A stretch of DNA of 64,000 nt, from assembly GCF_009914755.1 (NCBI RefSeq), contig NC_060928.1; one strand, 5' to 3'. Every line of letters starts with the position of its first letter. Positions within the stretch are counted from its first letter, which is position 1. Source of the DNA: the human T2T-CHM13v2.0 reference genome, Homo sapiens. Made by a program: the position numbers and the translations under genes. The notes under the pieces are model-generated. The model was given only the letters and a program-made list of their open reading frames with translations. It was not told where the DNA came from and ran no database searches. Positions 8,701 through 17,921 of the stretch are shown here, one piece after another.

Positions 8701-9230
8701 GAAACAGTAATGAAATACTTCCTATCAAAATAGTGTATGCAACAAAAAAGTAGCCAAACAGGCAAAGCTGTAGCCTTAAATGCTTATATTTGAAAGTATG
8801 TAAATCTATAATCCAGTATAGGTACACATTTATCTCAACTTCCAGAACCAAACAATGCATAGTTGCCACCAACATATACTGATGCCTTTAGCATAGTTGA
8901 GTTCTGCTGTCTTGTTAGAACCAGAAGAAGCTCCACGGTAATATGGAATTAAAGGCATAATAATCTCCACATTTTAAGTATCACAGTCTAATACCAGCTA
9001 AACAATAGCTGGAAACGGACTATGAATATATAGATAATTATATAGTAACTATATATGAATCACTTTACTAATATATTGCATGTATTGGATGTCATATTCC
9101 AGAAAAAGATAATAAAATTAGATAAAACATGTAAATCTAAATATGAATAAATCGTATGTCCCATTTAAAAAGAGAAAAGGGAAAATATCAGAGATGATCC
9201 AACAAAATTGACTCATTAACAGAAATTTCT

Positions 9231-10154
9231 TGGCTCTCTGCCTATGGAGTAGTCATTTTATTTTATTCCTTTACTTTCCTAATAAACTTGCTTTCACTTT
9301 ACCGTATGGATTTGCCCCAAACTCTTTCTTGCAGGAGATCCAAGAACTGGAATTGGGACCCCTTTCCAGTAACATCTTTCTGGCAAACCATGGAAGCAGT
9401 AATACTGAAAAGACCCCTGACCCAAAGGAAAATCATCTGCGCACAACAGCAATCGGCCAACTTTAGGTATCACCTTTTGTCAGAACTCGGAGTTATGAAT
9501 GGCTCTCAACATACTGACGCTTTCTGACTGAGCTCCTCTCTACCCCAAATACAAGAGACCCTAAAAGTTAGAAAGGAATATCATCGCCCCTGTTCAGCAT
9601 GAAGAAGTTACAGAAGATGCACTCTTGTCCCTCTGCAACCCTTAGGATTAAAGGTTCTCTTATAAAAGGGAGCAGAGAAATGTCAGAGTTCTCTGAACCA
9701 GAGCAACTCTATCTTGAGTAGGGGCTGGGTAAAATAAGACTGAGACCTACTGGGCTGCATTTCAAGATGGTTAAGCATTCTAAGTCACAGGATGAGACAG
9801 GAGGTCAGGACAAGATACAGGTCATAAAGACTTCGCTGGTAAAACAGGTTGCATAAAGAAGCCGGCTGAAACCCACCAAAATCAGGATGGCAGTAAGAGT
9901 GACCTCCAATCGTCCTCACTGCTACACTCCCACCAGCTCCATGACAGTTTACAAAGGCCATGGCAATGTCAGACAGTTACCCTATATGGTCTAAAAAGGG
10001 GAGGCATGAAAAAATCACCCCTTGTTTAGCATATAATCAAGAAATAACCATAAAAATGGGCAACCAGTGCCCTAAGGGCTGCTCTGCCTATGGAGTAGCC
10101 ATTCTTTTATTCTTTTACTTTCCTAATAAACTTGCTTTCACTTAAAAAAAAAAA
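9231..10154 (+). mobile_element. MER41A-like ERV1 element in processed (R-U5/internal/U3-R/polyA) form
   Basis: 9681 onward matches remembered MER41 start TGTCAGAG..GAACCAGAGCAACTC..; 9231-9374 matches LTR 3' end (..GGGACCCCTTTCC.GTAACA); about 67-nt R repeat at both ends; A11 tail. Confidence 0.85.
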
Positions 10155-10431
10155 TTTCTCAAAAGTTCTCATAACTAAAATACATTGAAATAGTAGTTAA
10201 CATCTTCTCAATGAAAACAGAAAACACCAGGCAATGACAGTTTTACAGGACTGTTTTACCAAGATTTCAAGGAATACATTAATTCAATTTTACATAAACT
10301 CTTTCAGAGAACTGAATAATACAGAATTTTCCCCACTGCTTCTACGGTCATTATAAACCTTAGATACACATGCATGAAAGACACAGGTCTACTTTATTCA
10401 TGAACATACACAGAAAAATCCTTTAAAAAAT

Positions 10432-17835: not shown

Positions 17836-17921
17836 CTTTCAAACCTAGAGTTTGTAGCTGGAAGAGCCGACCAAGTTCATAAGGCAAAACCCGTAACAGA
17901 TTGTTATTTAAAAGCAATTCC
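17836..17921 (-). CDS. CNOT6L: CNOT6L coding exon (exon 4, 86 nt), LRR: (R)ELLLNNNLLRVLPYELGRLFQLQTLGLK(G)
   Basis: Not in the ORF track; read manually. Poly-T tract then aaaacag|G acceptor, AAAG|gtaagt donor, phases match flanking exons. Confidence 0.96.

What the first reader, a model, noticed from the sequence alone, without database searches (positions are those of the whole stretch)
9221..10159. MER41 retrovirus RNA copied as a processed pseudogene, apparently from a short spliced transcript
Seen: the LTR halves are in RNA order, not provirus order. The element starts at R (9231), runs through U5 to ..gtaaca (9374), a PBS-like tggcaaaccatggaag (9381), only about 300 nt of internal sequence, a polypurine tract (9664-9680), then U3-R from tgtcagag (9681), AATAAA (10125-10130) and an A11 tail 13 nt later (10144-10154). 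R is duplicated (9231-9299 vs about 10077-10143), and the equivalent of the 5' end lies about 28 nt after the TATA-like ataaaaa at 10050, where transcription should start. Flanks share aaatttct (9223-9230, 10152-10159) and old L1 sequence continues on both sides. Known: this anatomy is the signature of L1-mediated retroposition of ERV mRNA, well described for HERV-W. Inference: the internal part is a leader spliced near ctttag|gtatca (about 9466/9467) to a 3' acceptor, so this is a fossil of a non-coding MER41 subgenomic RNA that records its TSS, splice and polyA sites, and may belong to an under-described SINE-like family.
Basis: partly seen in the sequence, partly recalled or inferred. Interest (0 to 1): 0.8.

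Follow-up and report, generated by a model that had tools for sequence, protein, structure and literature searches.

The report
L1-made retrocopy of spliced MER41 RNA
This 0.9-kb stretch in a CNOT6L intron is a dead DNA copy of a short spliced RNA from the ancient MER41 retrovirus, pasted in by the LINE-1 machinery, and it belongs to a large and apparently undescribed set of such copies.

Summary
Window 9231-10143 reads R-U5-PBS-leader / 3' internal-PPT-U3-R, followed by an A11 tail, and is flanked by aaatttct on both sides. The splicing inference holds. In unspliced genomic copies the leader is followed at exactly this point by GTAAGT (20 of 21 leader loci). The downstream part is preceded by a pyrimidine-rich ...CTTCCAG (26 of 29 loci). 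Seven other loci carry the same junction. The six examined start at R, and four show A-tails with target duplications of about 9-17 nt.

The same donor is also joined to a second acceptor about 1.1 kb further upstream in 10 more loci. Spliced junctions occur only in copies that lack U3 (0 of 10 versus 7 of 13, p=0.007). Genome-wide, 348 MER41-type R ends run straight into an A-run, against 1823 that continue into U5.

Two claims were not supported: old L1 in the flanks, and a self-propagating SINE-like family. A review calls HERV-W the only HERV group mobilised by L1, and six literature searches found no description for MER41.

The parts
9223..9230 (+). 5' copy of the target-site duplication (aaatttct)
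   Evidence: Read; found as repeat D3. The same 8-mer lies at 10152-10159.
9231..9299 (+). R region at the 5' end. It starts at the transcription start and has no U3 before it.
   Evidence: Repeats D1 and D2; 63 of 71 columns identical to 10075-10143. Fourteen other leader loci start within a few nt of the same point without U3.
9300..9374 (+). U5, ending ..gtaaca
   Evidence: In 22 of 29 3'-end loci this sequence follows R in full LTRs.
9381..9398 (+). Primer-binding site of the tRNA-Arg type, decayed at CpG sites and carrying small insertions
   Evidence: Gapped alignment to the 18-mer quoted as tRNA-Arg-complementary in PMC11905727: 12 identities over 16 aligned columns, with two 1-nt gaps. 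Other copies give up to 17 identities of 19 columns. There is no ungapped match within 3 mismatches.
9375..9466 (+). End of exon 1 (spacer, PBS and leader). The last base before the splice junction is 9466.
   Evidence: In 20 of 21 unspliced leader loci the homologous position is followed by GT(A/G)AG.
9467..9680 (+). Exon 2: the last 214 nt of the ERV interior, ending in the polypurine tract (9664-9680)
   Evidence: Thirty-nine of 39 non-self top genome hits begin to match within a few nt of 9465 (query positions 230-242). Upstream of that point 27 of 29 loci share intron-like sequence, and 26 of 29 have AG directly before (A/G)TATCACC.
9681..10076 (+). U3 of the LTR (starts tgtcagag; TATA-like ataaaaa at 10050-10056)
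   Evidence: A more distant LTR copy starts matching at 9681 (L009 second LTR). A 24-nt stretch of the published MER41B-like motif matches exactly at 10016-10039.
10077..10143 (+). R at the 3' end, with AATAAA at 10125-10130. It ends at the polyadenylation site, with no U5 after it.
   Evidence: The same end..CACTT followed by an A-run, occurs 348 times in the genome.
10144..10154 (+). Poly(A) tail (A11)
10152..10159 (+). 3' copy of the target-site duplication. Its first three A's overlap the tail.

Best explanation
Window 9231-10143 is a processed pseudogene of a MER41-group endogenous retrovirus.

Proposed history:
1. A provirus elsewhere in the genome was transcribed from its 5' LTR, starting about 27 nt after the TATA-like box.
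2. The RNA was spliced from the major donor, about 90 nt past the PBS, to an acceptor 214 nt before the 3' LTR.
3. It was polyadenylated 13 nt after the AATAAA in R.
4. The roughly 0.9-kb RNA was reverse-transcribed and inserted by the LINE-1 machinery through target-primed reverse transcription. This left an A-tail and a short target duplication.

The copy landed antisense in a CNOT6L intron. It lacks a 5' promoter and was dead on arrival.

Shown: the RNA-order anatomy, the exact coincidence of the break with donor and acceptor motifs, and the existence of sister copies with tails and duplications.

Inferred: that L1 was the enzyme, that the copies arose independently from proviral RNA, and that the event dates to about the time of the family's activity in early simians.
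For: 1. Anatomy. The order is R-U5-PBS-leader-3' interior-PPT-U3-R-A11 with flanking aaatttct. There is no U3 before the element and no U5 after it.

2. Donor. In 20 of 21 unspliced leader loci the leader end ...CTTTGG is followed by GT(A/G)AG(T).

3. Acceptor. Thirty-nine of 39 non-self top hits match the window only from about 9465 on. In 27 of 29 loci the sequence upstream of that point is shared interior sequence. In 26 of 29 it ends ...CTTCCAG.

4. Same junction elsewhere. Eight junction-spanning rows among 40 scored, self included. Six fetched copies all read ...TGG|ATA(T/C)CA... A 21-mer junction pattern gives 12 genome hits, of which 8 are these copies and 4 are chance.

5. Sister copies. 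All six examined start at R without U3. L034 has A23 and a 16-nt duplication, L037 A11 and about 17 nt, L051 a short A-rich tail and at least 9 nt, and L056 A15 and about 10 nt.

6. Splicing goes with loss of U3. Zero of 10 unique U3-bearing 5' ends are spliced, against 7 of 13 unique R-start ends (Fisher p=0.0075).

7. Family-wide L1-type ends. Seven of 29 3'-end loci stop at ..CACTT plus an A-rich tail. Genome-wide there are 348 such ends (control 1) against 1823 that run on into U5 (control 0).
Against: - The target duplication is only 8 nt, and 3 of those are indistinguishable from the tail.
- The target (cag|aaatttct) is A/T-rich but is not the canonical TT|AAAA.
- The window's junction reads AG|GT, whereas the other seven copies read GG|AT. 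This needs two later substitutions, or one substitution plus a G-variant of exon 2 as seen in L003 and L005.
- One sister copy (L032) shows no tail, and one (L033) stops matching at window position 9853, so its 3' end was not seen.
- No orthologous empty site could be examined, because no other primate genome is on hand.
- The claimed continuity of an old L1 across the site was not found.
- The tree of 45 copies is an unresolved star (2 of 42 inner branches well supported). Independent origin of the eight copies is therefore not shown.
Confidence: 0.9

Rival explanations
1. The eight same-junction copies are a self-propagating, SINE-like retroposon family. One spliced retrocopy became a master gene and bred the others.
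For: Eight loci share one junction. On the tree the label 'spliced A' needs only 2 changes, and one origin is not excluded by supported branches.
Against: - The copies begin at R and have no promoter upstream. Their only U3 lies at the 3' end and can drive just R plus downstream DNA.
- The tree is star-like with terminal branches near 0.09. The spliced copies sit among unspliced ones.
- The same donor is also found joined to a second acceptor in 10 further loci, and unspliced R-start copies exist. That pattern fits sampling of a provirus's whole mRNA set better than a single master.
Confidence: 0.06
2. It is an eroded provirus or mini-provirus. A normal retroviral integration later lost its interior, the U3 of its 5' LTR and the U5 of its 3' LTR through deletions.
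For: Internally deleted proviruses are common. No empty-site check could be made here.
Against: - It would need three deletions that end exactly at the transcription start, at the GT/AG pair and at the poly(A) site.
- It would also need an A11 run and an 8-nt flank repeat instead of the 4-bp duplication reported for MER41-type ERVs (Table 1 in PMC11905727).
- All of this would have to recur in seven other loci.
Confidence: 0.02
3. A spliced viral RNA was packaged and was reverse-transcribed and integrated by the retrovirus's own enzymes.
For: Spliced retroviral RNAs are occasionally packaged (general knowledge, not tested here).
Against: Retroviral reverse transcription rebuilds full U3-R-U5 LTRs at both ends and leaves no A-tail. 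None of the seven class-A copies examined, window included, has a full 5' LTR.
Confidence: 0.02

Closest known systems
HERV-W (HERV17/LTR17) processed pseudogenes made by LINE-1
   Same: The anatomy is the same: the 5' LTR is reduced to R-U5, the 3' LTR is reduced to U3-R, and there is a poly(A) tail. Passages of PMC5016936 and PMC6995185 describe this. MER41-int is listed in the same HERVW9 group as HERV17 (passage of PMC5753468).
   Different: This is a different ERV group with a different LTR. A review states that HERV-W is the only HERV group mobilised by L1 (PMC5537654, abstract and a passage). The founding paper (Pavlicek et al. 2002) is not held, so I know it only from recall and could not check whether it examined MER41.
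HERV-W processed pseudogenes that lack the pre-gag region (putative intron)
   Same: These are retrocopies that record a splice of the viral RNA, with donor and acceptor motifs at the edges of the missing part (passages of PMC6995185).
   Different: There a short leader intron is removed and gag-pol-env remain. Here almost the whole interior is removed, leaving a 0.9-kb RNA with 214 nt of interior. A second acceptor is also recorded in other copies.
Ordinary processed pseudogenes (retrocopies) of cellular mRNAs
   Same: Intron loss at GT-AG, an A-tail, variable target duplications, no promoter, and dependence on L1 (general knowledge; passage of PMC5753468).
   Different: The template is a retroviral transcript, so the copy carries LTR halves in RNA order and a U3 with a TATA-like box at its 3' end.
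SVA / SINE-R type composite retroposons
   Same: ERV-derived sequence that is moved by L1 (general knowledge).
   Different: Those are serially amplifying families with their own transcription. Nothing here shows serial amplification.

Membership tests
L1-made processed pseudogene of an ERV transcript (HERV-W type) | The 5' end lies at the start of R, with no U3 | tested here: met
   The window starts at 9231. The 60 nt before it are unlike the U3 ends printed for 11 U3-bearing copies.
L1-made processed pseudogene of an ERV transcript (HERV-W type) | The 3' end lies at the end of R, with no U5, followed by poly(A) | tested here: met
   A11 follows ..cactt at 10143. In 22 of 29 other loci U5 follows the same point.
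L1-made processed pseudogene of an ERV transcript (HERV-W type) | Target-site duplication of variable length, longer than the retroviral 4 bp | tested here: met
   An 8-nt repeat in the window, with 3 nt ambiguous. Sister copies have repeats of about 9-17 nt.
L1-made processed pseudogene of an ERV transcript (HERV-W type) | Insertion at an L1 endonuclease-type target (TT|AAAA-like) | tested here: inconclusive
   The window's target is cag|aaatttct. Three of five duplications seen begin in an A-run. The sample is too small to test a motif.
L1-made processed pseudogene of an ERV transcript (HERV-W type) | Colinear with a mature RNA, with the intron removed at GT..AG | tested here: met
   Donor GT(A/G)AG in 20 of 21 unspliced loci. 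AG before exon 2 in 26 of 29 loci.
L1-made processed pseudogene of an ERV transcript (HERV-W type) | Empty site in species that diverged before the insertion | not testable with these tools
   Only the human assembly is held.
MER41 LTR / MER41-int (Repbase, Dfam) | Alignment to the curated MER41A-G and MER41-int models | not testable with these tools
   No Dfam or Repbase library is on hand.
MER41 LTR / MER41-int (Repbase, Dfam) | Carries sequence published as MER41B-like | tested here: met
   Twenty-four contiguous nt of the 26-nt MEME motif M2 match exactly at 10016-10039, with 0 matches in 100 shuffles. The motif comes from Table 1 of PMC2897888.
MER41 LTR / MER41-int (Repbase, Dfam) | High copy number, and a tRNA-Arg-type PBS as in the HERVW9 group | tested here: met
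   4236 first-look candidates for the element; 1823 plus 348 R-end matches. The PBS aligns to the tRNA-Arg 18-mer with small gaps. Which subfamily (A, B...) was not determined.
SINE-like, serially amplifying retroposon family | Own promoter, or descent of copies from copies (shared diagnostic changes, a nested tree) | tested here: not met
   There is no promoter 5' of R. The tree is star-like and the spliced copies do not form a supported clade, though a single origin is not excluded.

The most novel reading that the evidence does not exclude
The MER41-group retrovirus, not only HERV-W, was mobilised wholesale by LINE-1 in early simians, leaving hundreds of retrocopies (348 polyadenylated R ends). 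These fossils preserve its transcript map: one start site, one major donor, at least two acceptors, possibly a doubly spliced form, and one poly(A) site. The short 0.9-kb RNA would then be a regular subgenomic product of this gamma-like virus, either regulatory or encoding a small protein. A 73-codon frame from U5 across the junction is still open in 2 of 6 copies. It would not be a splicing accident.
Probability: 0.3. Interest if true: 0.7.

Novelty: new member of a known kind. Interest (0 to 1): 0.6.

Why it matters
Reviews of the field state that HERV-W is the only human ERV group whose transcripts were moved by LINE-1 (PMC5537654). The copies found here show the same process for a second, much more numerous LTR family:
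- R-start copies, both spliced and unspliced, with A-tails and long target duplications.
- A genome-wide count in which 348 of 2171 R ends run into an A-run.

This has three practical consequences.
1. Many annotated 'MER41' pieces would be promoterless retrocopies rather than integrations. That matters for studies that treat MER41 LTRs as interferon-responsive enhancers, or that date them by LTR divergence.
2. The retrocopies fix the start site, splice sites and poly(A) site of a virus that was active in early simians. RNA from such a virus can no longer be sampled.
3. L1 activity and its choice of templates at that time can be compared between two ERV groups.

Tried and rejected
- **L1 in the flanks.** BLAST of 830 and 850 nt of flank against about 300 kb of held genomic DNA and the rest of the window gave 0 hits. 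Genome searches gave 15 low-identity hits for the left flank and 3 for the right. Fifteen stop-free frames gave no L1 domain. The claim is left open.
- **More same-junction copies.** A shorter junction query found no new ones. The four extra 21-mer pattern hits proved to be chance, with no flanking homology.
- **Coding content between the two acceptors.** Fourteen stop-free frames of at least 40 aa from two copies gave no Pfam family at E<=0.1 except one weak chance-level hit. Whether the upstream acceptor once served env is unknown.
- **Tree to decide one or many origins of the spliced copies.** It was unresolved.
- **Ungapped PBS match to the tRNA-Arg 18-mer.** None within 3 mismatches. A gapped alignment does fit.
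- **Pavlicek et al. 2002.** Not held.
- **Further loci.** The copy at C20:47.07 Mb and the new class-B loci are therefore known only from search tables.
- **Rejected readings.** The first genome search showed 680-nt matches starting at 9465, and I briefly read this as a longer LTR starting there. I rejected that reading because the copies share sequence upstream of that point.

Full report
**What is in the window**

- The element starts at 9231, directly after aaatttct (9223-9230).
- R runs to 9299 and U5 to ..gtaaca (9369-9374).
- A PBS-like tggcaaaccatggaag starts at 9381.
- A purine tract (9664-9680) precedes tgtcagag (9681), where U3 starts.
- ataaaaa lies at 10050, 27 nt before the point that corresponds to the element's first bases.
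- AATAAA is at 10125-10130 and the match to R ends at 10143.
- A11 follows (10144-10154), and aaatttct recurs at 10152-10159.

The repeat finder returns the two R copies as 42 nt at 95% and 27 nt at 89%. A global alignment gives 63 identical of 71 columns. The hub's gene table puts the site in the CNOT6L intron between exons at 1645-1734 and 17836-17921. The gene is on the minus strand, so the element is antisense to it.

**The break at 9466/9467 is a splice junction**

*Acceptor side.* A search of the window's own assembly with the whole element produced 4236 first-look candidates, of which 40 were scored.
- All 39 non-self top hits matched only from query positions 230-242, about window 9465, to the end of R, at 83-87% identity.
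- At first this looked like a longer LTR. The 60 nt upstream of the match are, however, homologous among 27 of the 29 fetched loci. L007 shares only the last 10 nt or so, and L021 shares none.
- In 26 of 29 loci this shared stretch ends ...TTAATCTTCCAG directly before (A/G)TATCACC. The exceptions are L021, L024 and L030.
- That is interior proviral sequence ending in a pyrimidine-rich 3' splice site.

*Donor side.* A search with U5 plus leader (316 candidates, 40 scored) gave 29 loci.
- In 21 of them the leader end ...CTTTGG is followed by intron-like sequence.
- Twenty of the 21 read GT(A/G)AG, mostly GTAAGTGG. L085 is degenerate.
- The window therefore lacks exactly what lies between a consensus donor and an acceptor.

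*A small discrepancy.* The window's junction reads AG|GT, whereas the sister copies read GG|AT. This needs two later substitutions, or one substitution plus the G-variant of exon 2 seen in L003 and L005.

**Sister copies**

- A 185-nt query across the junction (366 candidates, 40 scored) gave eight rows that span it, self included, and 32 rows that match only the 3' half.
- Six of the seven other copies were fetched. All read ...TGG|ATA(T/C)CA.. at the junction. All match the window's element from its first bases (9230-9238) onward.
- A 21-mer junction pattern with up to 2 mismatches hits 12 places in the genome. The reversed control hits 77, so the count alone means little. Eight of the 12 are these copies and four have no flanking homology.
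- A shorter junction query found no further copy. Eight is therefore a lower bound.

The ends of the six fetched copies:

| Copy | 3' end | Target duplication |
|---|---|---|
| L034 | A23 | 16 nt, 2 mismatches |
| L037 | A11 | about 17 nt |
| L051 | short A-rich tail | at least 9 nt |
| L056 | A15 | about 10 nt |
| L032 | no tail seen | none seen |
| L033 | match stops at window 9853, so the 3' end was not seen | not seen |

All six start at R, with unrelated and mutually different flanks. The seventh copy, at C20:47.07 Mb, is known only from the search tables.

**The wider family**

*Other junctions at the same donor.* Among the 29 leader loci, four (L076, L083, L084, L089) join the same donor to a different sequence, AGTCAAGAAAAC... 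L083 and L084 are a duplicate pair.
- In unspliced copies that sequence lies about 1.1 kb upstream of the first acceptor.
- It is preceded by ..GCTGATCCTTTGTTTTGTTTTTCAG. In 21 of 35 loci AG falls exactly at the projected boundary.
- A junction query for this second class gave 10 spanning rows of 40 scored. These include the query itself and the duplicate pair.
- With L045 that makes 10 distinct loci.
- A 21-mer pattern gave 32 hits against 11 for the control.
- Two further R-start loci (L068, L073) carry other joins at the same donor.

*Splicing and loss of U3 go together.* The 5' ends of the 29 leader loci sort as follows:
- 11 have U3 (10 unique).
- 14 start at R (13 unique).
- 2 are cut by Alu.
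- 2 (L063, L072) share a different upstream sequence.

None of the 10 unique U3-bearing copies is spliced, against 7 of the 13 unique R-start copies (Fisher p=0.0075). That is the pattern expected if mRNAs were retro-copied, and not if proviruses suffered deletions.

*3' ends.* Seven of 29 loci stop at ..CACTT followed by an A-rich tail, and 22 run on into U5. Genome-wide, with up to 3 mismatches:
- The last 20 nt of R followed by seven A's occur 348 times, 46 of them exactly (control 1).
- The same 20 nt followed by the first 7 nt of U5 occur 1823 times (control 0).

The two patterns differ at five positions, so they should not overlap. About 16% of R ends of this LTR type are therefore polyadenylated ends.

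**Which family, and how old**

No Dfam or Repbase library is on hand, so the MER41 label rests on indirect tests.
- A 26-nt MEME motif that Schmid and Bucher describe as resembling MER41B (PMC2897888, Table 1, seen as a passage) matches the window over 24 contiguous nt at 10016-10039, with no match in 100 shuffles.
- The PBS aligns, with small gaps and CpG-type changes, to the 18-mer that Frith quotes as tRNA-Arg-complementary (PMC11905727, passage; alignment). There is no ungapped match within 3 mismatches.
- Kojima lists MER41I (MER41-int), with MER41A, B and D-G, in the HERVW9 group beside HERV17 (PMC5753468, passage). I did not determine the subfamily.

A tree of 45 copies of the shared 680 columns is a star. 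Only 2 of 42 inner branches are well supported, and the median terminal branch is 0.09.
- The window's branch is 0.094. This fits one burst of activity and the age class of the family.
- Frith places the family in the common ancestor of simians (passage).
- The five spliced copies on the tree do not form a clade, but a single origin is not excluded.

**Mechanism**

The best reading is L1-mediated retroposition of a spliced, polyadenylated proviral RNA.
- Shown: the RNA-order anatomy, the motif-exact break, the tails and duplications, and the link between splicing and loss of U3.
- Inferred: that L1 supplied the enzymes. The target here, cag|aaatttct, is only loosely like TT|AAAA, and five duplications are too few to test a motif.
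- Also inferred: that each copy is an independent event.

A self-breeding SINE-like family is unlikely, because the copies lack a 5' promoter. An eroded provirus would need three motif-exact deletions repeated at eight loci. Retroviral integration of a spliced RNA would have rebuilt full LTRs.

**Coding potential**

In the window the longest ATG frame has 73 codons (9306-9527). It starts in U5 and crosses the PBS and the junction. The same frame is open in L051 and broken in the other four copies. I see no reason to call it a gene, but I cannot exclude one.

No Pfam family was found in 14 stop-free frames from the 1.1 kb between the two acceptors in two copies.

**Comparison with what is in print**

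- The kind is known from HERV-W: 135 of 213 loci are L1-made pseudogenes with R-U5 and U3-R ends (PMC5016936, passages).
- A few HERV-W pseudogenes lack a putative leader intron (PMC6995185, passages).
- Six full-text searches found no description of MER41 processed pseudogenes or of spliced ones. The terms were combinations of MER41, PRIMA41, MER41-int, processed pseudogene, retrocopy, L1-mediated, spliced and subgenomic.
- Limits of this check: subscription papers are mostly not searched, Pavlicek et al. 2002 is not held (known to me by recall only), no supplements were read, and the Repbase and Dfam notes could not be seen.

I therefore rate the finding a new member of a known kind, of moderate to good interest. 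The single locus is ordinary once understood. The family-level picture behind it does not seem to be in the literature I could reach.

**Not confirmed**

No empty-site test was possible.

Noticed in passing
L076, L083/L084, L089, L045; also C1:214825295, C11:118886659, C17:49841789, C21:31156648, C6:12612838 (search tables only): A second class of spliced retrocopies. The same donor is joined to an acceptor (..TTGTTTTGTTTTTCAG|AGTCAAGAAAAC) about 1.1 kb upstream of the window's acceptor. There are 10 distinct loci.
   Followed up: partly
L095 (G000:C6:112131960-112132350): A three-part copy: leader, then about 125 nt starting at the upstream acceptor, then the window's exon 2. The second break lies 3-4 nt before a GTGAGT seen in most of the 36 unspliced copies printed, so 4 nt are missing relative to a clean splice. 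This is either a doubly spliced RNA with a small later deletion, or a deletion.
   Followed up: partly
whole assembly G000: Census of R ends of this LTR type: 348 run into an A-run (46 exact matches of 27 nt) and 1823 continue into U5. This suggests several hundred L1-type retrocopies, most of them probably 5'-truncated. Their target duplications were not examined.
   Followed up: partly
L068 and L073: Two R-start copies carry other sequences directly after the same donor. The two share a 101-nt piece that also occurs in L023 and L025. These may be further splice forms or rearrangements.
   Followed up: no
L063 and L072: The same R-U5-leader-donor is preceded by a mutually homologous sequence that is unlike the U3 of the other copies. 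This may be another LTR subtype with a shared R.
   Followed up: no
L075, L081, L003: A short-leader variant in which about 35 nt before the donor are missing (..CCAAAGGCTAACTTTGGTAAGT). L003 also has a partly duplicated leader and about 200 nt of unrelated sequence before the upstream-acceptor exon.
   Followed up: no
window 9306-9527; L051: A 73-codon ATG frame from U5 across the PBS and the splice junction is open in the window and in L051, and broken in L032, L034, L037 and L056.
   Followed up: partly
window 8830-9129: The left flank holds a low-copy repeat. It matches 15 other places at 66-78% identity, several of them near the starts of contigs 13, 15, 21 and 22. It ends about 100 nt before the insertion site.
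   Followed up: no
window 9990-10015 versus L037: By eye, the window's U3 lacks a stretch that L037 has just before the MER41B-like motif, which includes TTCTGGAAA (printout). The window's LTR may therefore belong to a subtype without that GAS-like site. Not tested.
   Followed up: no
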